Positions 2,074 through 8,065 of a DNA stretch of 31,719 bases are shown piece by piece. The position numbers and the translations under genes are program-made. Positions within the stretch are counted from its first letter, which is position 1; every line of letters begins with the position of its first letter. Under the pieces are notes generated by a model. That model saw nothing but the letters and a program-made list of their open reading frames with translations, did no database searches and was not told the DNA's origin. Source of the DNA: a virus. The DNA lies in UHGV virus genome UHGV-0106476; one strand, given 5' to 3'.

Positions 2074-2370
2074 TCAGTCATTACTGATAGCGCCATAGCG
2101 TGAGCGGTAATTACGCAGGCGCGGGTCGATATATTCAGGGAATTTGTCTATTGTCTCTTTTCGCAACGGTCTCATTGCTGTTTCGTTTGTTCGGTCCTTC
2201 TCATCTTTTAACGCGAGTTGTATATCGCGTCGGTACATCCGTTCTGCTTTTGTTTCTGGTGGAAGATCGATAAACGTGTCGAAATTATTTTTGATATTTT
2301 CCAGCACCTCCGCCTTGGAGCTACCGGAGCAGTTGCGCGGGTCATCCGCACCATACAGAGGCGCTGGCAT
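2074..2370 (-). CDS. hypothetical protein (position compatible with a P22 Abc-type anti-RecBCD gene; unverified)
   Basis: 98-aa [19 protein letters not shown]... downstream of erf/ssb on the pL strand. Functional guess is positional only. Confidence 0.5.
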
Positions 2371-2393: not shown

Positions 2394-2774
2394 CTAGAAG
2401 GGAATTGAATCGTCGTATTCAGGATGATTTTGATGATTGCTACTTTGCTGCTGGCCATTTCCTGAAGCTGCAAATCCAATCTTTGCATTCAGTAATTCAA
2501 GAGTGATTGATTGACCATTTTGCCCCTGATAAACATCAACCCTGATGTTTTCTCCGGTAATTTCCACAATTCCACCTTCAACAAGAACACTACGGTAGTA
2601 ATCCGCTTGCGCTCCCGGCTTGGCAAATACAACGGCGCTGTAGTTTGTCCATTCTTTCTTTTTTGTCTGGCGATCGTAATACTGAACGCCAGCACGGATG
2701 TTGAATCCGATATTTTCCCCGGCCTGAAACTCTCTTGCGGGCTTGTTTAGTCTTACAGTAATCGAATGTGCCAT
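2394..2774 (-). CDS. phage SSB-like protein with acidic C-terminal tail
   Basis: In-frame ATG at 2772-2774 gives 126 aa (MAHSITVRLNK...) ending DDSIPF, which matches the bacterial SSB C-terminal tip DDDIPF. Start overlaps the erf stop (TAATG). Confidence 0.6.
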   Translation of the reverse strand: MAHSITVRLNKPAREFQAGENIGFNIRAGVQYYDRQTKKKEWTNYSAVVFAKPGAQADYYRSVLVEGGIVEITGENIRVDVYQGQNGQSITLELLNAKIGFAASGNGQQQSSNHQNHPEYDDSIPF

Positions 2775-3379
2775 TAAGCAGCAGCTCCTTCTAATTCGTC
2801 TCGTCTGATGTTGTAAACGTCCTGCGCTTTGTGCTGCTCCGGTGTGCCTTCGAGCATCTTCCACGCTTTGGCGAACGCCTGTTTAAGCTCTTCTACGGTG
2901 TTTTTCTGCATTGCTGCGTCAGTGAATGCTTTTAGAACCTGTTCAGGTGTAGGTGATGGTTTTGATTGCTTTGCTGCTGCGTTCTGCTGATGTTTATGCT
3001 CGTCTGTATCTGCATCTTTCGCATCATCAATGCCGAACAAACCATTGAGGCAATACTTGCGTGCATAAGAGCTTGTAGCTCCCGTAACTTGTGCAGAATC
3101 CATTCCTTTCTTGCTTTCTTCCTCTCGTGCAAGAGCGGTTGCCGTATGACTGTTTTCGCCATCGGTAATAGTTGCCGTGGCTTTCACGTAATACCGATCA
3201 CCAATCAACACAACTTCATCGCTGATTGATAAAAACAGACCATTCAGTAACGGCTTAACGCCTTCAAGAATATCTTCGCAGCTTCTGTATTTATATTTAC
3301 CGAATGAGTTGTACTGATTTTTTGGCGCGTTCAGATTCTCCTGAATAGCTGCCAGTCTTGCGTAAAATTCTTTGCTCAT
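2774..3379 (-). CDS. erf: Erf-family single-strand annealing recombinase
   Basis: 201 aa from the ATG at 3377-3379 (MSKEFYARLAAIQENLNAPKNQYNSFGKYKYRSCEDILEG...), recalled as close to P22 Erf. The ORF track's longer form begins at an upstream TTG. Confidence 0.8.
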   Translation of the reverse strand: MSKEFYARLAAIQENLNAPKNQYNSFGKYKYRSCEDILEGVKPLLNGLFLSISDEVVLIGDRYYVKATATITDGENSHTATALAREEESKKGMDSAQVTGATSSYARKYCLNGLFGIDDAKDADTDEHKHQQNAAAKQSKPSPTPEQVLKAFTDAAMQKNTVEELKQAFAKAWKMLEGTPEQHKAQDVYNIRRDELEGAAA

Positions 3380-3389
3380 ATGTTTGTTC

Positions 3390-3560
3390 TCAGAATGGAC
3401 ATTCCCCAAGGAAATAACGCTGATTTAAAACTTCGACTCTGGACAAATTAAGGCATACCCGCATTCCTTCGCGATCGCCATTATGGCGATACCAGAGAGC
3501 TTTCTGCGTGTACATGCGTCTCTGTAACTTGCTCTCCTTCACTGTGGTTGCAAGTGACAT
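3390..3560 (-). CDS. small ORF between kil and erf (Arf-like position), candidate A
   Basis: 56 codons, ATG at 3558-3560 with GGAG about 6 nt upstream. Overlaps candidate B in another frame; only one is likely real. Confidence 0.3.
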   Translation of the reverse strand: MSLATTVKESKLQRRMYTQKALWYRHNGDREGMRVCLNLSRVEVLNQRYFLGECPF

Positions 3561-3639
3561 GAATATCTCCTTCGTTACCGATTAATTCTTTCATCTGACG
3601 AATGAATTCTTCGTCTGACCAGTTATCTGTAAAACTCAT
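3481..3639 (-). CDS. small ORF between kil and erf (Arf-like position), candidate B
   Basis: 52 codons (MSFTDNWSDEEFIRQMKELIGNEG...); its ATG overlaps the kil stop (ATGA). Alternative to candidate A. Confidence 0.3.
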   Translation of the reverse strand: MSFTDNWSDEEFIRQMKELIGNEGDIHVTCNHSEGEQVTETHVHAESSLVSP

Positions 3640-3788
3640 TTCCTGCGATACCACGGAAGGTTGATAGCTGATTTCATCGCTTTATTTGCTTCAAACCACA
3701 TTTTGGAATCACCAATAAATCTGGCTATTACTGCTTTGTTCTGTGCAGCACGAAGCATCTGGTGATTGATGGCTATTTCATTGCGCAT
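3636..3788 (-). CDS. kil: Kil-like host cell-division (FtsZ) inhibitor
   Basis: 50-aa ORF MRNEIAINHQMLRAAQNKAVIARFIGDSKMWFEANKAMKSAINLPWYRRK, with the FIGD-x-KM core recalled from lambda/P22 Kil; sits directly downstream of cIII as in lambda. Confidence 0.6.
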   Translation of the reverse strand: MRNEIAINHQMLRAAQNKAVIARFIGDSKMWFEANKAMKSAINLPWYRRK

Positions 3789-3904
3789 AATAAGACCTCA
3801 ACTCTTTTCCATCCGTCACGTAATTTACGGGTGATTCGTTCAAGTAAAGATTCATTTAGTTGGAAGGCACCCATGCGAGCGCCTCCCGCGATTGCGTAAA
3901 TCAT
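3773..3904 (-). CDS. cIII: CIII (FtsH inhibitor stabilising CII)
   Basis: 43-aa ORF MIYAIAGGARMGAFQLNESLLERITRKLRDGWKRVEVLLCAMK; the ESLLERITRKLRDGWKR segment matches the conserved core of lambda CIII. Below the ORF-track length cutoff. Confidence 0.8.
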   Translation of the reverse strand: MIYAIAGGARMGAFQLNESLLERITRKLRDGWKRVEVLLCAMK

Positions 3905-3927: not shown

Positions 3928-4896
3928 TTAGTAGGTTATTTTTGTTGCGAATACTTCGCCTTTTACGATGGCTGTTATGATATTTTTAGCAACATCTTCT
4001 GATGCGCCAACCTTGATAAGGTCAGCAAGTATTTTGTTATTTACTTCTTTCCGGTGAGCTTTATCCTTTGCTCTACGCTCTTCTTCGTCCTTGATTCTTT
4101 TTTCTTCTGCTATTCTGGCTTGCTCTTTTGCTTCAGCCTCGCGCCGGATTCGTTCAGCCTCCTCCTGTGCTTTTCGGCGTTCTGCTTCAATTGCCGCCTG
4201 CTTTTCTCTTTCAGCTCGTTCTGCTGCCTCTTTTGCTTCGCGCTGTGCTCGTTGCTCGGCTTCAATGCGTTCACGCTCTGCACGTTCCGCTGCGGCCTTA
4301 GCTTCTGCTTCTCGCCTTGCTGCTGCTTCAATTTCGGCTTTTGCCTTTGCTTCGGCTTCTGCTCTGGCTTTCTCTTCAGCTTCTCTTTTTAAGCGTTCTT
4401 CATGCTCTCGCTTTTCCTGCTCCGCTTTGAGTCTTGCCTCTTCTCTTTGGCGGTCAAATTCGCGATCCATCAAAATAGCTATTTCATGGTCAGACTCAAT
4501 TTGCTTTGCGAGAGCTTCAGCTGCTGCCTTAGCTTCTTCTTCGGCTTTAATCCGTGCCTGTTCCTCCTCATAATCAGTAAGAGGCTGGCGTGCCTTGGAT
4601 TTCAGCTCATCAAGGCGATCACGCACTGTCTTGCGGTTGGCATCAATTAGCTTTGGAATTTCCTTCAGTTCAGCAACAAGGTCTTTTCCAAGACCATCGA
4701 GATATGTTTTCGTCTGCGCAACTTTATACGCCAGAGAAGCGATCTCCTTTCTGCCCTTTGCCGTTGTGATATCAGGCACAAAGGACATAACTTCACGTTC
4801 AACCTTTTGAAGGATTTCTTCAATCTGGTCGGCAGACTGAAATACAGTCATTGCATTTGCTTTTTCAATAACAACTAAATCTGTTACTTCACTCAT
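3928..4896 (-). CDS. hypothetical protein with long E/A/K/R-rich charged helical repeat region
   Basis: 322-aa ORF: globular N-terminus, about 150 aa of EAKAxAE/RREAE-type repeats, then a short C-terminal domain (NKILADLIKVGASEDVAKNIITAIVKGEVFATKITY). Confidence 0.6.
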   Translation of the reverse strand: MSEVTDLVVIEKANAMTVFQSADQIEEILQKVEREVMSFVPDITTAKGRKEIASLAYKVAQTKTYLDGLGKDLVAELKEIPKLIDANRKTVRDRLDELKSKARQPLTDYEEEQARIKAEEEAKAAAEALAKQIESDHEIAILMDREFDRQREEARLKAEQEKREHEERLKREAEEKARAEAEAKAKAEIEAAARREAEAKAAAERAERERIEAEQRAQREAKEAAERAEREKQAAIEAERRKAQEEAERIRREAEAKEQARIAEEKRIKDEEERRAKDKAHRKEVNNKILADLIKVGASEDVAKNIITAIVKGEVFATKITY

Positions 4897-4908
4897 ATAT
4901 CCTCCGTC

Positions 4909-4936
4909 AAAAAATTGCCCTCACACTGGAGGGCAA
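4909..4936 (-). terminator. intrinsic terminator on the pL strand upstream of the 322-aa gene
   Basis: Minus-strand RNA: 8-bp stem (4929-4936 with 4915-4922), 6-nt loop, then a U6 run (4909-4914). A second 9-bp hairpin lies at 4997-5024. Confidence 0.5.
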
Positions 4937-5029: not shown

Positions 5030-5218
5030 TTATTCGTCATGCATTTCAGGTAATTCTTCGTATTCGACGCCCCATACGAGTTTACACCAACTAACTCGCT
5101 CATATCTTTTACAAAAATCAGACCACATAACTTGGGTTCCATCATGGTTTGTTATTACTTCTGTAATATCACCAACACTAACAAAACTGGTATTAGAAGC
5201 AGTTATTTTTACTTTCAT
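5030..5218 (-). CDS. hypothetical protein (AT-rich accessory block)
   Basis: 62-aa ORF; start overlaps the upstream stop (TAATG); low-GC local composition by eye. Confidence 0.45.
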   Translation of the reverse strand: MKVKITASNTSFVSVGDITEVITNHDGTQVMWSDFCKRYERVSWCKLVWGVEYEELPEMHDE

Positions 5219-5514
5219 TACTTATCCCCAAGAGCTTTTCTGATTGCTGCAAGACCTTTATTAACAGCTCCATACCATTCTGGATATGTTGTCGTTGTTC
5301 TATTTTTGGATTGCTTAAGTAATAACTGAAGTGCTTCGAGAAGGTCAGGTGCTGCCGCTATTAGATTGGCATCTTCAATGCATTGAACTTCCTCACAGAT
5401 TGCAATATACGAACGCCAGCCTGCGCCATTTTCAAGTGAGTCTGCCTGGATTATTTTAATCTCATCGCCATCCATCATTATTTCCCACTTACCTTCAGTA
5501 CCTTTAAATTCCAT
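5218..5514 (-). CDS. hypothetical protein (AT-rich accessory block)
   Basis: 98-aa ORF, ATG at 5512-5514 with AGAGGA RBS. Confidence 0.5.
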   Translation of the reverse strand: MEFKGTEGKWEIMMDGDEIKIIQADSLENGAGWRSYIAICEEVQCIEDANLIAAAPDLLEALQLLLKQSKNRTTTTYPEWYGAVNKGLAAIRKALGDK

Positions 5515-5535: not shown

Positions 5536-5562
5536 CAAAAATAAAGGCCGACTATGCGGCCT
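5536..5562 (-). terminator. putative intrinsic terminator between the 156-aa and 98-aa genes
   Basis: Minus-strand hairpin (stems 5545-5550 and 5557-5562, 6-nt loop) followed by UUUAUUUUUG; overlaps the 156-aa gene stop. Confidence 0.4.
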
Positions 5563-6031
5563 AGTAGAATACCCAATTTTCTGTTTCTTGGTTGTGTCCA
5601 AAGTTATATTCAATATCTGGTGTTGATGTATCAATATTCTTCATCCCATCAACAAGAGTTGATACAACAGCCAAATCTTGTTTGATTCTCATCAAATGGT
5701 ATTTCTTCCGGCGCAATAAACTTTCAATGGCAAGTTTCTTCGTTGGGAATGCAAAAGATCTTTCTGCATTTTTTGCTACTTTCTTAATTGCATATCTATT
5801 TCTCCTTTGTTTCCATTCCTGTAACCACTGATTTGGTGCTGGTTTAAAATTAACAATCCAATGCGCAGGAACCAACCATGCATAATGCTCTGTCTGATGA
5901 AAAGCTATATATTGAAGTGCGAATATTTTGATTCCATCTTCTTCAACTGTCGCTTGGAATCTCCAGAAAACAGGCATTCCATCATGTTCAGTTTCTGATT
6001 CAGGAAAAGGTACGCTCCATGATTTTGTCAT
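5561..6031 (-). CDS. hypothetical protein (AT-rich accessory block)
   Basis: 156-aa ORF, ATG at 6029-6031 with GAGGTGAG RBS; soluble, Trp/His-rich, no motif recognised. Confidence 0.55.
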   Translation of the reverse strand: MTKSWSVPFPESETEHDGMPVFWRFQATVEEDGIKIFALQYIAFHQTEHYAWLVPAHWIVNFKPAPNQWLQEWKQRRNRYAIKKVAKNAERSFAFPTKKLAIESLLRRKKYHLMRIKQDLAVVSTLVDGMKNIDTSTPDIEYNFGHNQETENWVFY

Positions 6032-6093
6032 ATCTCACCTCAAATAAGTGGTTTGCTGCCAAAACAATGAACCATCCGGAAATTCCAGATAGT

Positions 6094-6318
6094 TCATAAT
6101 TCACTCTTCAATACTTCCAACTTACTAATCGCCGATAGATATCCGCGCTGATAGGGCATCATCACTCCTTCGAGCTTGCCACTTCTTAACTCCTCCCTGA
6201 GCAATTGTATTGCTTGATCAATAACCTCTGCCTTAGCGTCCTTTATGGCTTGCTTGCGGGGCTTTGCTTTCTGCTTTGGCAGATTTCTCAAGCATGATGG
6301 AATGTATGTCTGATTCAT
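6094..6318 (-). CDS. hypothetical small basic protein immediately downstream of N
   Basis: 74 aa from the ATG at 6316-6318 (MNQTYIPSCLRNLPKQKAKPRK...), GAGGTAAG RBS; the ORF track's extra codon is a GTG. Confidence 0.5.
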   Translation of the reverse strand: MNQTYIPSCLRNLPKQKAKPRKQAIKDAKAEVIDQAIQLLREELRSGKLEGVMMPYQRGYLSAISKLEVLKSEL

Positions 6319-6321
6319 CAC

Positions 6322-6594
6322 TTACCTCGCTGTCAGTTGTTTTGATTTCCGGTAGCCTGCCGCGTAAAGAGCTACGTTTGGCAGGCAAATACTTCCACTG
6401 CATTCATCTGCCTTCTTGCAGCGAAGGCTTCCGAGTGATGCTGCTTTGTCTGCTCTGACGCAACCAGAGAGCTTTAGCGCAATTTTTCGCGCCAGTCGCT
6501 GCTCTTGCATTGCCTGTTCACGTTGAGCCTGTCTGCGTGCTCTGCGGCGATTTCTGGCGTTATCGTCAGCCAGATATGTAATGACTACTGTCAT
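6322..6594 (-). CDS. N: N-type transcription antiterminator
   Basis: 90-aa ORF with an N-terminal arginine-rich motif (NARNRRRARRQAQREQ) and a C-terminus (LPNVALYAAGYRKSKQLTAR) recalled as close to P22 gp24; sits downstream of pL and nutL. Confidence 0.75.
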   Translation of the reverse strand: MTVVITYLADDNARNRRRARRQAQREQAMQEQRLARKIALKLSGCVRADKAASLGSLRCKKADECSGSICLPNVALYAAGYRKSKQLTAR

Positions 6595-7348: not shown

Positions 7349-8065
7349 TCAAACCAGCCTTAGTTTTGTCTCAATTGCAACGCCTATAATCTTGCAGTTT
7401 CCATTGATTGGCACGAGAGGCCATGCAGGGTTAAGTCCCTTGAGGTATTTATTTCCGCCGTCGATTATCAGCTTCTTGAATGTTGCTTCGTTAGAGTCAG
7501 AAAGTTTTGCTATGACCAAGCTGCCGTTGATCGCCTCCCTTCCGGTATCGAAAAGAACGAATGTTCCCTCTGGAATGCTTAACCCAACCGGTGCCGTCAT
7601 TGAATCACCTTCCACTTTAAGCCAAAACGCATTACCTTGAATATGCGCGTCAGACTCAAGCCAAACATCTATGTCTTTAATGGTGTATGGTTCGCATGCT
7701 TCACACCACGAGCCAGCCTGGATACTGCTTAACACCGGATACCTCTTTCCTGCTCTGTATTCCCCTGCATACCTTACGTTGGCATCGCTCTTAAGGCTTT
7801 CTGCCTGTTCTGCAACCTTGGCAGCAATTGACTGGCTAAAATCAGCAATTGAGACTTGCAATAATCGTGCAAAACCAGATGCAACCTCAACGTTTAGCGC
7901 ATTTCTGCCATTAAGATAATGCCCTACCGCTCCTTGGGTGATACCCAGTTCATCAGCGATTGAGTATTGGGTTATTCCCAATTCTTTCTTTTTTGACTCA
8001 TACAAAGCCTTAAGCCGCTTAGCGTCTTCGAGCTGTTCTGTCGTCAGTGATTTTTTATTTTCCAT
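7349..8065 (-). CDS. cI: CI repressor (HTH plus LexA-type S24 autopeptidase domain)
   Basis: 238 aa with an N-terminus resembling lambda CI (LTTEQLEDAKRLKALYESKKKELGITQ), an EGDSM Ser motif and a C-terminal catalytic-Lys region (FKKLIIDGG); divergent from cro. Confidence 0.9.
   Translation of the reverse strand: MENKKSLTTEQLEDAKRLKALYESKKKELGITQYSIADELGITQGAVGHYLNGRNALNVEVASGFARLLQVSIADFSQSIAAKVAEQAESLKSDANVRYAGEYRAGKRYPVLSSIQAGSWCEACEPYTIKDIDVWLESDAHIQGNAFWLKVEGDSMTAPVGLSIPEGTFVLFDTGREAINGSLVIAKLSDSNEATFKKLIIDGGNKYLKGLNPAWPLVPINGNCKIIGVAIETKLRLV

What the first reader, a model, noticed from the sequence alone, without database searches (positions are those of the whole stretch)
3928..4896. 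322-aa protein with an unusually long E/A/K/R-rich charged helical repeat
About 150 residues are almost pure EAKAEAE / RREAEAK-type repeats flanked by small globular ends, sitting just upstream of cIII in the pL operon. This looks like a single-alpha-helix or coiled-coil spacer domain. The repeat makes the DNA low-complexity and generates spurious antisense ORFs. I recognise no function for it.
Basis: seen in the sequence. Interest (0 to 1): 0.4.

Follow-up and report, generated by a model that had tools for sequence, protein, structure and literature searches.

The report
Phage Agt/gp53-family protein with long charged helix
This is a real, selected phage gene from a very large but uncurated family (phi80 Agt, Pseudomonas phage D3 gp53, Sf6 gp33): two small end domains joined by a long, stiff charged helix, encoded next to phage recombination genes, and probably acting on the host RecBCD/DNA-end machinery.

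Summary
Window 3928-4896 (-) encodes a 322-aa protein. Residues 150-285 are 90% E/A/K/R/Q and residues 106-290 have no Gly or Pro. The gene lies between a terminator and cIII-kil-erf-ssb-abc2 in the pL operon.

The charged stretch has the signature of an ER/K single alpha-helix, not a coiled coil, and not a true tandem repeat. Opposite charges at i/i+4 are enriched (z +4.7 to +7), and strong hydrophobics at heptad a/d positions are 13% or less. AlphaFold2 predicts one 146-residue helix.

The gene is not a pseudogene. 78 of 80 close relatives are intact and dN/dS is 0.11.

It is not functionally anonymous. It is 51% identical over its full length to phi80 Agt/Mog, annotated as anti-toxin/modifier of the RecBCD inhibitor GamL. 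It also shares N- and C-terminal domains with D3 Orf53, which a 2025 preprint shows licenses Gabija restriction on its own.

The N-domain profile finds 5,716 clusters at 50% identity. There is no Pfam family and no solved relative.

In about 18 of 21 diverse phage and prophage contexts the gene lies beside or a few genes from an SSAP and/or recombination exonuclease gene.

Helix length varies naturally; whole proteins run from 197 to 432 aa.

Best reading: an accessory factor of the phage recombination module directed at RecBCD or DNA ends, with the helix as spacer. The mechanism is inferred, not shown.

The parts
3928..4896 (-). Complete gene for the 322-aa protein (stop codon at 3928-3930). 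Member of the phi80 Agt / D3 Orf53 / Sf6 gp33 family (PHROG 1376).
   Evidence: ORF list and sequence. PHROG 1376 matches over the full length, E 1.7e-110. At least 97% nt identity in 35 lambdoid/P22-like phage records. 51% identity to phi80 Agt. dN/dS 0.11.
4552..4896 (-). N-terminal domain, aa 1-115. Predicted helical hairpin: H12-20 and H22-38 packed on the start of long helix H46-). Carries the family motif VPDxxTxKGRxxIxSxAxKVxxSKT, with invariant R49, S54, A56 and P105.
   Evidence: Alignments. AF2 N-domain model, pLDDT 89.7. The profile of this domain finds 5,716 clusters at 50% identity. dN/dS 0.05.
4447..4551 (-). aa 116-150. First part of the helical middle, carrying the semi-conserved motif E(S/A)DHE(I/M)A(I/L)LM(D/N)xxFDR. 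AF2 places a low-confidence break at residues 142-150. This segment is absent from the 245-aa and 197-aa alleles.
   Evidence: motif; pLDDT below 50 at 142-150; short alleles.
4042..4446 (-). aa 151-285. ER/K-type single alpha-helix core, 90% E/A/K/R/Q. About 200 A long if straight, assuming 1.5 A rise per residue.
   Evidence: Composition. Charge-pair statistics and lack of a heptad seam. AF2 helix 150-295 with pLDDT above 90. Family-wide signature. dN/dS 0.18.
3931..4041 (-). aa 286-322. Small C-terminal helix-loop-helix module plus tail. Family consensus: (D/N)KxH(R/K)xx(I/V)N...L(I/M)xxG(I/L)xExxAKxx(I/V)xAIxxGx(V/I)xxxxIx(Y/F). H281 lies just upstream. The last residue is aromatic.
   Evidence: Alignments. 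106 of 134 representatives end in Y or F. AF2 H300-311. Only weak, non-significant resemblance to RuvA domain III / UBA-like modules.
4901..4905 (-). Shine-Dalgarno GGAGG upstream of the ATG.
   Evidence: Read from the sequence.
4909..4936 (-). Intrinsic-terminator-like hairpin (TTGCCCTC...GAGGGCAA followed by a T run) immediately upstream of the gene. It corresponds to the 'tL2A' feature annotated in Sf6. The gene therefore heads the N-antiterminated segment that carries cIII, kil and the recombination genes.
   Evidence: Terminator scan. Sf6 annotation.
4516..4536 (-). First copy of a 21-nt direct repeat encoding EAKAAAE (codons 121-127). Left end of the 77-codon in-frame deletion that gives the natural 245-aa allele.
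   Evidence: 19 of 21 nt identical to the second copy.
4285..4305 (-). Second copy of the 21-nt direct repeat encoding EAKAAAE (codons 198-204). Right end of the deletion in the 245-aa allele.
3773..3904 (-). Context: cIII, the next gene downstream. It follows this gene in all 80 close relatives examined.
   Evidence: PHROG 550. PF02061. Neighbourhood of the 80 relatives.
3636..3788 (-). Context: kil.
   Evidence: PHROG 2055. PF06301.
2774..3409 (-). Context: Erf-family single-strand annealing protein of the recombination module.
   Evidence: PHROG 155, E 7.6e-58.
2394..2864 (-). Context: phage SSB. The listed ORF starts at a GTG that overlaps erf, so the real start is probably further in.
   Evidence: PHROG 44.
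2074..2370 (-). Context: Abc2 anti-RecBCD protein. This is the RecBCD modifier of this phage; no GamL is present.
   Evidence: PHROG 656. PF11043 Anti-RecBCD_p2, E 1.4e-35.

Best explanation
**What it is.** The gene encodes a member of the phi80 Agt/Mog, D3 gp53 and Sf6 gp33 family. This is a very large family of proteins from phages and prophages, mostly of Proteobacteria, with no Pfam model. The family is a so-far unrecognised accessory component of phage recombination (Rec) modules.

**Architecture (shown).**
- A helical N-terminal domain of about 115 aa.
- A long Gly/Pro-free helix, whose core (aa 151-285 here) is an ER/K-type single alpha-helix.
- A C-terminal helix-loop-helix module of about 40 aa that ends in an aromatic residue.

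**Function (inferred from homolog phenotypes and gene position).**
- The protein is made with the delayed-early pL genes.
- It acts on the contest between phage DNA ends and host RecBCD. It either keeps RecBCD off phage DNA locally or modulates the phage's own RecBCD modifier (GamL in phi80, Abc2 here).
- The two end domains would bind the partners, whether protein or DNA.
- The stiff charged helix would hold them a set distance apart, roughly 20-35 nm.
- It is dispensable for plaque formation, like most Rec-module accessories.
For: **Family membership**
- PHROG 1376 matches over the full length.
- 51% identity to phi80 Agt, E 5e-65, with the same length of 322 aa.
- 51% identity over 119 aa to D3 Orf53, E 2e-37, plus an aligned C-terminal module.

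**Family size and real function**
- 5,716 representative clusters at E <= 1e-3 and 1,626 at E <= 1e-30.
- 78 of 80 close relatives are intact.
- dN/dS is 0.05 in the N-domain, 0.18 in the helix and 0.11 overall.

**Genomic association with recombination genes (non-homologous SSAP types)**
- phi80: agt-gamL-recT-exo.
- D3 and PAJU2: homolog-erf-exo.
- Piluca: homolog-bet-exo.
- Shewanella 1/41: homolog-exoVIII-bet.
- phiPLPE: recE-bet-homolog-rdgC.
- D273: erf-homolog.
- BT-1011: rec-ssb-homolog.
- MR15: homolog-x-AAA ATPase-DUF669-exonuclease; I read the ATPase as Sak4-like.
- Yersinia and Edwardsiella phages: homolog-cIII-...-exo/recT or a recombination protein.
- Assemblies with precomputed Pfam labels: homolog-GamL(PF28165)-RecT-YqaJ, homolog-RecT-YqaJ, and YqaJ-homolog.
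- The same E. coli allele sits in front of Erf+Abc2, phi80-type RecT, or Bet+Exo modules.

**Homolog phenotypes**
- The phi80 record labels agt 'anti-toxin for Gam; Mog (modifier of Gam)' and gamL 'toxic without Mog'.
- In PMC12407980, D3 orf53 alone licenses Gabija restriction in trans.
- It is redundant with Exo-Erf and orf66.
- It cross-complements a JBD30 escape phage.
- It sensitises a transduced plasmid.
- That paper's model is that licensing factors keep RecBCD off linear phage DNA.

**Positional analogy**
- In Firmicutes phages the slot upstream of erf, sak4 or recT is filled by Mu Gam-like, DUF1351, DUF2483 or gp157 genes. The authors of PMC8093625 propose these have analogous functions.

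**Single alpha-helix**
-.

**Spacer behaviour**
- Natural alleles of 197, 221, 245, 262, 322, 334, 344, 354 and 432 aa all keep both end domains.
- The middle region has a median length of 190 aa, with a 10th-90th percentile range of 151-213.
Against: - No biochemical activity is known for any family member.
- The phi80 claim rests on a GenBank annotation, plus my memory that it comes from Rotman et al. 2012 (J Bacteriol 194:6802). That paper could not be read here.
- The D3 data come from a preprint. It does not show that gp53 binds DNA ends or RecBCD, and it lists gp53 apart from the three 'end-binding systems'.
- This phage has no GamL, so a GamL-specific role cannot apply here.
- Three of about 21 contexts show no recognisable SSAP nearby: Vibrio 1.015.O, Cobetia Carin1 and Acinetobacter WUPSU.
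- Between phi80 and this phage the helix is more conserved (73% aa identity at 151-240) than either end domain (40% and 38%). That is unexpected for a purely passive spacer.
- D3 deletions spanning orf52-66 are well tolerated, so any role is conditional.
Confidence: 0.5

Rival explanations
1. General recombination accessory or scaffold, independent of RecBCD. The protein would bind the SSAP, exonuclease, SSB or replisome and organise them on DNA, in the manner of P22 Arf or Abc1. The helix would act as a tether or ruler. Gabija licensing and GamL detoxification would then be indirect consequences.
For: The gene is tightly adjacent to SSAP and exonuclease genes of different, non-homologous families. 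The same allele is combined with different Rec modules. The terminal domains diverge faster between lineages than the helix does, as expected if they co-evolve with variable partners.
Against: D3 orf53 licenses Gabija on its own, without Exo-Erf, and does so in a heterologous phage (JBD30) and on a plasmid. A factor that works only through its cognate SSAP or exonuclease should not do that. A single allele preceding non-homologous SSAPs argues against specific SSAP binding.
Confidence: 0.2
2. Dimeric coiled-coil DNA-end tether. Two chains would pair along the long helix, as in Rad50/SMC or Mu Gam's leucine zipper. They would bridge or cap the two ends of injected linear DNA, helping circularisation and thereby excluding RecBCD.
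For: The helix is long, about 250 residues in total. The segment aa 106-150 is more hydrophobic and carries a conserved motif that could nucleate pairing. Ala is abundant in the helix (26%). The phenotype resembles that of the end-binding Gam(Mu) in the Gabija study.
Against: No heptad register in residues 150-285 has more than 13% strong hydrophobics at a/d positions, and those positions are at least 56% charged. Family-wide, the best-register value has a median of 0.21. The i/i+4 salt-bridge pattern is the hallmark of a monomeric single alpha-helix. The 245-aa and 197-aa alleles lack the hydrophobic motif altogether. No DNA-binding domain was detected.
Confidence: 0.12
3. Dedicated antitoxin or modifier for a toxic phage RecBCD inhibitor (the literal phi80 'Agt/Mog' role). 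Here it would work on Abc2, or on another toxic early gene such as kil.
For: The phi80 annotation. The Agt-GamL pair is conserved in Klebsiella and Raoultella prophages. In close relatives the gene is always followed by cIII and usually by kil.
Against: Most family members have no GamL beside them. In D3, PAJU2, Piluca, Shewanella 1/41 and P. citronellolis the homolog lies directly next to the SSAP or exonuclease gene. This window has Abc2, which lies five genes away. D3 lacks kil and cIII at this position. D3 orf53 has a phenotype by itself.
Confidence: 0.1
4. TolA-like or other cell-envelope or structural protein, as many database records label it ('TolA', 'cell envelope biogenesis protein', 'tail-fiber', 'colicin import membrane protein').
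For: Database names only. A weak TIGR02794 tolA_full match, E 0.26.
Against: The TolA score is 10.5 bits against a cut-off of 59.45, and the match lies only in the low-complexity helix. There is no transmembrane segment (maximum Kyte-Doolittle 19-residue mean 1.03). There is no TolA C-terminal domain, nor any Pfam hit at all. The gene lies in the early pL operon, not among structural or lysis genes.
Confidence: 0.02
5. Decaying or meaningless low-complexity ORF (pseudogene or junk).
For: The frame is interrupted in CUS-3 (1-nt insertion) and in 2 of 80 IMG/VR relatives. D3 tolerates loss of the region.
Against: 78 of 80 relatives are intact. dN/dS is 0.11 overall and 0.18 in the helix itself. 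Both end domains are conserved from Escherichia to Pseudomonas, Vibrio, Acinetobacter and Shewanella phages. The family has 5,716 clusters.
Confidence: 0.01

Closest known systems
Phage phi80 (Lula) Agt / Mog, YP_007947961 ('anti-toxin for Gam; modifier of Gam')
   Same: Both proteins are 322 aa and 51% identical over the full length (E 5e-65). They share the same three-part architecture. Both are transcribed leftward from pL, after N and ahead of the recombination genes.
   Different: phi80 agt is followed directly by gamL-recT-exo. Here the gene is followed by cIII-kil-(two small ORFs)-erf-ssb-abc2, with no GamL. The end domains are only 38-40% identical, against 73% in the helix. The functional claim for Agt could not be checked against the primary paper.
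Pseudomonas phage D3 Orf53 (gp53), a Gabija 'licensing factor' (Hong et al. 2025 preprint, PMC12407980)
   Same: The N-domain is homologous (51% identity over 119 aa, E 2e-37). The C-terminal module is homologous and a long charged helix is present. It sits at the head of the Rec module (orf53-erf-exo).
   Different: It is 354 aa, with a longer and less purely charged first half of the middle region. It lies directly next to erf and exo, with no cIII or kil. Its phenotype was measured in P. aeruginosa with the PA14 Gabija system; nothing equivalent has been tested for the E. coli and Shigella phage alleles.
ER/K single alpha-helix (SAH) domains (e.g. myosin VI/X lever extensions, caldesmon; from general knowledge)
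   Same: Composition is E/K/R(/A/Q)-rich with no Gly or Pro. Opposite charges at i/i+4 are strongly enriched and like charges depleted. There is no hydrophobic seam. The region is predicted as one uninterrupted helix that joins two functional modules.
   Different: It is unusually Ala-rich (26%) and encoded by a bacteriophage. I know of no characterised phage single alpha-helix proteins, though that is a statement from memory, not a search. Monomeric state and stiffness are untested.
Genes occupying the slot upstream of the SSAP in Firmicutes phages: Mu Gam-like, DUF1351 (PF07083), DUF2483, Sipho_gp157 (PMC8093625)
   Same: They hold the same gene position relative to erf, recT or sak4. The authors of that paper propose an analogous function for the slot occupants. 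Lactobacillus phage A2 shows a 'Mu Gam-like end protection' gene followed by sak4.
   Different: There is no detectable sequence relationship. Pfam hmmscan of the window protein and of 12 diverse homologs gives no hit to PF07083 or to any Gam family. DUF1351 itself has no known function.
TolA domain II (the label most databases give this protein)
   Same: A long helical stretch rich in A, E and K.
   Different: There is no membrane anchor and no TolA domain III. The score is far below the family cut-off. The genomic context is different. The similarity is compositional only.

Membership tests
phi80 Agt / D3 gp53 / Sf6 gp33 family (PHROG 1376; no Pfam model) | Significant full-length sequence similarity to named members | tested here: met
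   PHROG 1376, E 1.7e-110, covering residues 1-322. phi80 Agt, 51% identity, E 5e-65. D3 Orf53 N-domain, 51% identity, E 2e-37. Sf6 gene 33, 98.6% nt identity.
phi80 Agt / D3 gp53 / Sf6 gp33 family (PHROG 1376; no Pfam model) | Three-part architecture: conserved N-domain (KGR...S.A.KV..SKT motif), a Gly/Pro-poor charged helix of variable length, and a C-terminal module with H(R/K)xx(I/V)N...G(I/L)xExxAK...Ix(Y/F) at the end | tested here: met
   Alignments. AF2 model. 106 of 134 representatives end in Y or F, with a middle region 73% E/A/K/R/Q/D.
phi80 Agt / D3 gp53 / Sf6 gp33 family (PHROG 1376; no Pfam model) | Encoded in the early operon, beside or a few genes from an SSAP and/or recombination exonuclease gene | tested here: met
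   Window gene order: gene-cIII-kil-x-x-Erf-SSB-Abc2. The same pattern appears in about 18 of 21 diverse contexts.
phi80 Agt / D3 gp53 / Sf6 gp33 family (PHROG 1376; no Pfam model) | Functional read-outs reported for members: neutralising GamL toxicity (phi80) and licensing Gabija restriction (D3) | not testable with these tools
   These are genetic phenotypes, known only from the phi80 record and PMC12407980.
'Antitoxin for Gam' in the strict sense (Agt-GamL gene pair) | A gamL (PF28165) gene immediately downstream | tested here: not met
   The downstream genes are cIII and kil, and the RecBCD modifier is Abc2 (PF11043). No GamL was found among the pL genes scanned. The pair is present in phi80 and in Klebsiella prophages.
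ER/K single alpha-helix (SAH) domain | High E/K/R content with enriched i/i+4 (and i/i+3) opposite-charge pairs and depleted like-charge pairs | tested here: met
   E->K/R at i+4: 24 observed against 12.4 expected (z 4.7). K/R->E at i+4: 29 against 12.4 (z 6.7). Like-charge pairs: 4 against 24 (z -5.3). The i/i+3 pairs are not enriched. Family-wide, the median z is 4.6.
ER/K single alpha-helix (SAH) domain | No hydrophobic a/d seam, so it cannot form a classical coiled coil | tested here: met
   At most 13% strong hydrophobics, and at least 56% charged residues, at a/d positions in all seven registers.
ER/K single alpha-helix (SAH) domain | A stable, monomeric, extended helix in solution | not testable with these tools
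   Only a prediction is available: AF2 helix 150-295 with pLDDT above 90. Circular dichroism, analytical ultracentrifugation or SAXS is needed.
Canonical coiled coil | Heptad repeat with hydrophobic a/d positions | tested here: not met
TolA (TIGR02794 tolA_full) | Score above the curated cut-off, an N-terminal membrane anchor and a C-terminal TolA domain | tested here: not met
   10.5 bits against a cut-off of 59.45. The maximum 19-residue hydropathy is 1.03, so no transmembrane helix. No Pfam domain.
DUF1351 (PF07083), positional analogue in Firmicutes phages | Match to the Pfam model | tested here: not met
   No hit at E <= 1 for the window protein, nor at E <= 0.1 for 13 diverse members. 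A profile-profile test could not be run because no DUF1351 sequence was obtained.
Known anti-RecBCD proteins (lambda Gam, GamL, Mu Gam, Abc2) | Sequence or fold similarity to any of them | tested here: not met
   No Pfam, NCBIfam or PADLOC match. No PDB sequence or fold match. A functional resemblance is suggested only by the homolog phenotypes.

The most novel reading that the evidence does not exclude
The family is a new, widespread class of phage factors that antagonise or redirect RecBCD-type end-processing enzymes locally at phage DNA ends. It would be unrelated to Gam, GamL, Mu Gam or Abc2. It would use an ER/K single alpha-helix as a molecular ruler to place its C-terminal partner-binding module 20-35 nm from an N-terminal anchor. 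Such factors would in turn be what defence systems like Gabija detect indirectly. On this reading, phi80 Agt ('antitoxin for GamL') and D3 gp53 ('Gabija licensing factor') are two views of one activity.
Probability: 0.3. Interest if true: 0.7.

Novelty: new member of a known kind. Interest (0 to 1): 0.45.

Why it matters
- **Uncurated and mislabelled.** The family has at least 5,700 clusters at 50% identity. It has no Pfam model and is routinely mislabelled as TolA, cell-envelope protein, tail fibre and so on.
- **Two findings joined.** I found no paper in the searched library that connects phi80 Agt (modifier of the RecBCD inhibitor GamL) with D3 gp53 (a stand-alone Gabija licensing factor). 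Here they turn out to be homologs.
- **A missing Rec-module gene.** They are also homologs of a gene found in many lambdoid and P22-like coliphages: Sf6, HK544, mEp043/213/234, CUS-3 and Stx1a phages. A recent survey of lambdoid Rec modules (PMC12315714) does not list this gene among Rec-module components.
- **What it would add if the RecBCD/DNA-end reading is right.** It would add a fifth kind of phage counter-measure to RecBCD. It would explain what Gabija senses in D3-like phages. It would also give a tractable bacterial-virus example of a single alpha-helix used as a spacer.
- **Limit.** For this particular window it is one more copy of a gene that has been sequenced many times.

Tried and rejected
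1. **Family libraries.** Pfam, NCBIfam and PADLOC scans of the protein gave nothing, or only low-complexity noise (TolA 10.5 bits, LmuB E 0.028, NlpC/P60 E 0.012). A Pfam scan of 13 diverse members gave only single, weak compositional hits.
2. **PDB sequence search.** A search with the family profile found only Prp45 and Zuotin charged helices at E > 0.05.
3. **Fold searches.**
   - Full model against PDB with Foldseek: nothing at E <= 1e-3.
   - N-domain against BFVD: family members only.
   - The afdb50 library was unavailable.
4. **C-terminal module.** Only non-significant hints were found: RuvA domain III (E 0.59 and 1.1), UBA_7 (0.22) and Phage_Arf (0.2). I keep this as a lead, not a finding. 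There is no relation to the small ORF at 3390-3560.
5. **Domain fusions.** None was found in the longest family members.
6. **True DNA tandem repeat.** Rejected.
7. **DUF1351 profile comparison.** I looked for a DUF1351 sequence to compare against. PV491271 is not in the collection. Phages A2 and A118 carry other genes in that slot.
8. **Rotman et al. 2012.** The source of the Agt name is not held in the paper library. No other paper mentions Agt together with GamL.
9. **The search for related loci.** The narrower alignment returned only close relatives.
Full report
**1. The observation**

Window 3928-4896 on the minus strand is an ATG-initiated ORF of 322 codons, with a GGAGG ribosome-binding site at 4905-4901.
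- Residues 150-285 are 90% E/A/K/R/Q, 61% charged and 6% strongly hydrophobic.
- The whole stretch 106-290 has no Gly or Pro.
- No other stop-free stretch in the window comes close. The best 100-residue E/A/K/R/Q fraction is 0.94, against 0.60 for the next best of 74.
- It is low-complexity rather than truly repetitive. Tandem Repeats Finder reports only weak 6-, 15- and 18-nt arrays, all scoring below 50.
- The long plus-strand ORFs that overlap it (4054-4392 and 4091-4573) translate to S/A/F/L/C strings.

**2. Context in the window**

Reading leftward from the repressor, the order is as follows.
- cI (7349-8065; HTH_3 plus Peptidase_S24).
- N (6322-6594; PF25694).
- Several small unknown ORFs.
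- A terminator-like hairpin at 4936-4915 followed by a T run. Sf6 annotates the equivalent feature as tL2A, next to a mosaic boundary.
- This gene.
- cIII (PF02061) and kil (PF06301).
- Two small ORFs.
- Erf, SSB and Abc2 (PF11043, anti-RecBCD).
- An Ead/Ea22-like gene.

The gene is therefore the first cistron of the N-dependent segment that carries cIII, kil and the recombination module.

**3. The gene is real and selected**

- The DNA is at least 97% identical in 35 phage records. These include Sf6 gene 33, mEp043/213/234, HK544, IME10, CUS-3, Stx1a phages and BASEL phages.
- Of the 80 closest IMG/VR loci, 78 carry an intact 322-codon gene and two have 3'-proximal frameshifts.
- CUS-3 has a 1-nt insertion that splits the gene into two annotated ORFs. 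This probably explains the two 'half' families, PHROG 17211 and PHROG 21365.
- Across 73 distinct alleles, dN/dS by region is as follows:

| Region (aa) | dN/dS |
|---|---|
| 1-110 | 0.05 |
| 111-150 | 0.05 |
| 151-285 | 0.18 |
| 286-322 | 0.27 |
| Whole gene | 0.11 |

The pseudogene reading is rejected.

**4. The family**

No Pfam, NCBIfam or PADLOC model matches. The TolA model scores 10.5 bits against a cut-off of 59.45.

tblastn with the N-domain finds 190 phage records from Pseudomonas, Vibrio, Klebsiella, Yersinia, Erwinia, Acinetobacter, Shewanella and other hosts.

A profile of the N-domain, run against 1.84 billion cluster representatives, finds:
- 5,716 clusters at E <= 1e-3;
- 5,194 clusters at E <= 1e-10;
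- 1,626 clusters at E <= 1e-30.

Alignments define three parts.
- **(i) N-domain**, about 115 aa. Motif VPDxxTxKGRxxIxSxAxKVxxSKT...GK.L...K...K..D..R...R...D......R.P, with invariant R49, S54, A56 and P105.
- **(ii) Middle region.** Among 106 representatives it is 96-288 aa long (median 190). It is 73% E/A/K/R/Q/D and about 1.5% Gly plus Pro.
- **(iii) C-terminal module**, about 40 aa. Pattern (D/N)KxH(R/K)xx(I/V)N...L(I/M)..G(I/L)xExxAKxx(I/V)xAI..Gx(V/I)....Ix(Y/F). It ends in Tyr or Phe in 106 of 134 representatives.

**5. Single alpha-helix versus coiled coil**

In residues 150-285:
- opposite charges four residues apart are twice as frequent as in shuffles (z +4.7 and +6.7);
- like charges are six-fold depleted (z -5.3);
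- charge has a periodicity of about 8 residues;
- no heptad register has more than 13% strong hydrophobics at a/d positions, and at least 56% of those positions are charged.

The same signature holds in 93% of 106 diverse representatives, where the best a/d hydrophobic fraction has a median of 0.21.

AlphaFold2, run with a 35-sequence alignment (mean pLDDT 85.5), predicts H12-20, H22-38, H46-142, a low-confidence break at 142-150, a single helix over 150-295 (pLDDT mostly above 90), H300-311 and a short tail. At 1.5 A rise per residue, helix 150-295 would span about 22 nm.

I conclude it is an ER/K-type single alpha-helix. The monomeric state remains untested.

**6. Length variation**

Natural alleles keep both end domains but differ in helix length.
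- Klebsiella: 197, 221 and 262 aa.
- E. coli and Salmonella: 245 aa.
- This window and phi80: 322 aa.
- Klebsiella and Raoultella: 333/334 aa.
- Hafnia: 344 aa.
- Pseudomonas: 354 aa.
- Vibrio phage D273: 432 aa.

The 245-aa allele is an exact 77-codon in-frame deletion between two 21-nt direct repeats that encode EAKAAAE. The repeats lie at window 4516-4536 and 4285-4305 and are identical at 19 of 21 positions.

One observation does not fit a purely passive spacer. Between phi80 and this phage the helix is better conserved (73% aa identity at 151-240, 64% at the nucleotide level) than the N-domain (40%) or the C-domain (38%).

**7. Folds**

- The N-domain model has pLDDT 89.7. It is a helical hairpin packed on the start of the long helix.
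- Foldseek against PDB found nothing at E <= 1e-3.
- Foldseek against BFVD found family members only.
- The C-module gives only sub-threshold hints to RuvA domain III and UBA-like helix-loop-helix modules. I treat this as a lead.
- No transmembrane helix is present.

**8. Genomic association**

In annotated phages the homolog lies directly beside, or a few genes from, an SSAP and/or recombination exonuclease gene.

| Phage or prophage | Gene order |
|---|---|
| phi80 | agt-gamL-recT-exo |
| D3 and PAJU2 | homolog-erf-exo |
| Acinetobacter phi5013-M1 | homolog-x-exo |
| Alcaligenes Piluca | homolog-bet-exo |
| Serratia Eta | homolog-x-exoVIII-x-bet |
| Shewanella 1/41 | homolog-exoVIII-bet |
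| Vibrio D273 | erf-homolog |
| Iodobacter phiPLPE | recE-bet-homolog-rdgC |
| Vibrio BT-1011 | rec-ssb-homolog |
| Yersinia 210.17 | homolog-cIII-x-x-exoVIII-recT |
| Edwardsiella GF-2 | homolog-cIII-...-recombination protein |
| Pseudomonas MR15 | homolog-x-AAA ATPase (Sak4-like by my reading)-DUF669-exonuclease |
| Erwinia Gungnir39 | homolog-x-x-exoVIII-DNA-binding protein |
| Klebsiella prophages (Pfam labels) | homolog-GamL(PF28165)-RecT-YqaJ |
| P. citronellolis (Pfam labels) | homolog-RecT-YqaJ |
| Assembly JAZHCG012206601.1 (GCA_044240345.1), 208-aa homolog (Pfam labels) | YqaJ-homolog |

Three contexts are uninformative: Vibrio 1.015.O, Cobetia Carin1 and Acinetobacter WUPSU.

Among the 80 near-identical E. 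coli alleles the gene is always followed by cIII. The Rec module behind it varies: Erf+SSB+Abc2, another SSAP plus Abc2, phi80-type RecT, or Bet+Exo.

The partner SSAP families are mutually non-homologous. The association is therefore with the recombination or DNA-end function as such, not with one protein.

**9. What homologs do**

The next gene, gamL, is labelled 'gam-like host nuclease inhibitor; toxic without Mog'. From memory this comes from Rotman et al. 2012, which I could not read.

*(b) D3 (Hong et al. 2025, PMC12407980).*
- Spontaneous Gabija-escape mutants of D3 delete orf52-orf66.
- It works in trans.
- It cross-complements a JBD30 escape phage.
- It makes a transduced plasmid Gabija-sensitive.
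- Escape phages lose their protection in recB- or recD-ATPase mutant hosts.
- The authors conclude that factors keeping RecBCD off linear phage DNA license Gabija.
- The paper gives no mechanism for gp53.
- D3 orf53 there is the gene I aligned. It lies next to orf52 (Erf) and orf51 (exonuclease).

*(c) Firmicutes phages.* The slot upstream of erf, sak4 or recT is filled by Mu Gam-like, DUF1351, DUF2483 or gp157 genes, proposed to be functionally analogous (PMC8093625). Phage A2 illustrates this with Mu Gam-like followed by sak4.

*(d) A recent lambdoid Rec-module survey.* PMC12315714 does not mention this gene.

**10. Interpretation**

*Shown.* Family membership, architecture, the single-alpha-helix signature, purifying selection, length polymorphism, and the association with Rec modules.

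*Inferred.*
- The protein acts on the RecBCD/DNA-end axis, because the two independent homolog phenotypes and the gene position all point there.
- The end domains are the binding modules and the helix sets their separation.

Because this phage has Abc2 and no GamL, the literal 'antitoxin for GamL' label (copied into at least one record, HF4s) should not be transferred.

Rivals are given in the rival explanations section: an SSAP or replisome scaffold, a dimeric end tether, a strict antitoxin, a TolA-like protein, and junk.

**11. Novelty and score**

- The gene has been sequenced many times, and two homologs carry names and phenotypes. This is therefore a new member of a known but barely characterised kind.
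- The analysis adds two things. First, the link between Agt, gp53 and the coliphage genes. Second, the definition of a conserved three-part architecture built around a single alpha-helix, in a family of at least 5,700 clusters with no Pfam entry.
- Interest is moderate, at 0.45.

Noticed in passing
window 3928-4896; public records listed: The family is widely mis-annotated because of its charged helix. Labels seen include 'TolA', 'cell envelope biogenesis protein', 'colicin import membrane protein', 'putative tail-fiber protein' (phiPLPE gp77), 'fibrinogen binding protein', 'IgA-specific serine endopeptidase autotransporter precursor' and 'SlyX'. The 'antitoxin protein' label in phage HF4s presumably derives from phi80 agt.
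   Followed up: partly
P0078 (111 aa, E. coli prophage); compare window 4657-4896 and 2074-2370: In this protein the first 80 residues of the gene are fused to a tail that carries a precomputed PF11043 (Abc2) hit. This suggests a prophage deletion that removed everything from mid-gene through cIII, kil, erf and ssb into abc2.
   Followed up: no
P0008 (222 aa), P0074 (249 aa), P0118 (130 aa): These variants have the N-domain (or the N-domain plus part of the middle) joined to unrelated C-terminal sequence. They indicate mosaic or deletion breakpoints inside the gene in some prophages.
   Followed up: no
L093 (phage CUS-3) 301-1270: A 1-nt insertion splits the gene into two annotated ORFs of 351 and 645 nt. 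It is either a sequencing error or a pseudogene. It is the likely source of the separate 'half-gene' families PHROG 17211 and PHROG 21365.
   Followed up: partly
window 3390-3560 (-) and 3481-3654 (-): Two small overlapping ORFs (56 and 57 aa) lie between kil and erf. They match PHROG 1723 and PHROG 2123, both labelled 'recombinase'. They correspond to Sf6 genes 29 and 30 (HK97 gp42 and gp42.1 homologs). They have no Pfam hit and their role in the Rec module is unknown.
   Followed up: partly
window 4042-4446 compared with L002 (phi80 agt): Between phi80 and this phage the charged helix is more conserved (73% aa identity at residues 151-240) than the N-domain (40%) or the C-domain (38%). My estimate of the identity expected from composition alone is about 20%. 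Within the E. coli clade the order is reversed: dN/dS is 0.05 in the N-domain and 0.18 in the helix. Possible causes are old intragenic mosaicism or sequence constraint on the helix.
   Followed up: partly
window 4909-4936 (-): A strong terminator-like hairpin lies between the 62-aa ORF (5030-5218) and the start of the gene. It matches Sf6 'tL2A' and sits next to the annotated mosaic boundary bsq4. In close relatives the upstream genes vary while gene-cIII-kil stays linked.
   Followed up: partly
window 5030-5218, 5218-5514, 5561-6031 (-): Three pL-operon ORFs upstream of the gene (62, 98 and 156 aa) belong to PHROGs of unknown function (10407, 1273 and 1636). They have no Pfam match.
   Followed up: no
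L103/L104 (Klebsiella prophages) 6013-6297: Pfam now has a GamL family (PF28165). In Klebsiella and Raoultella prophages it lies directly after the 334-aa homolog and before RecT and YqaJ. The Agt-GamL pair is therefore conserved well beyond phi80.
   Followed up: partly
window 2394-2864 (-): The listed SSB ORF starts at a GTG that overlaps the end of erf by about 90 nt. The PHROG match begins at residue 17, so the true start is probably the internal ATG (MAHSITVRL...).
   Followed up: no
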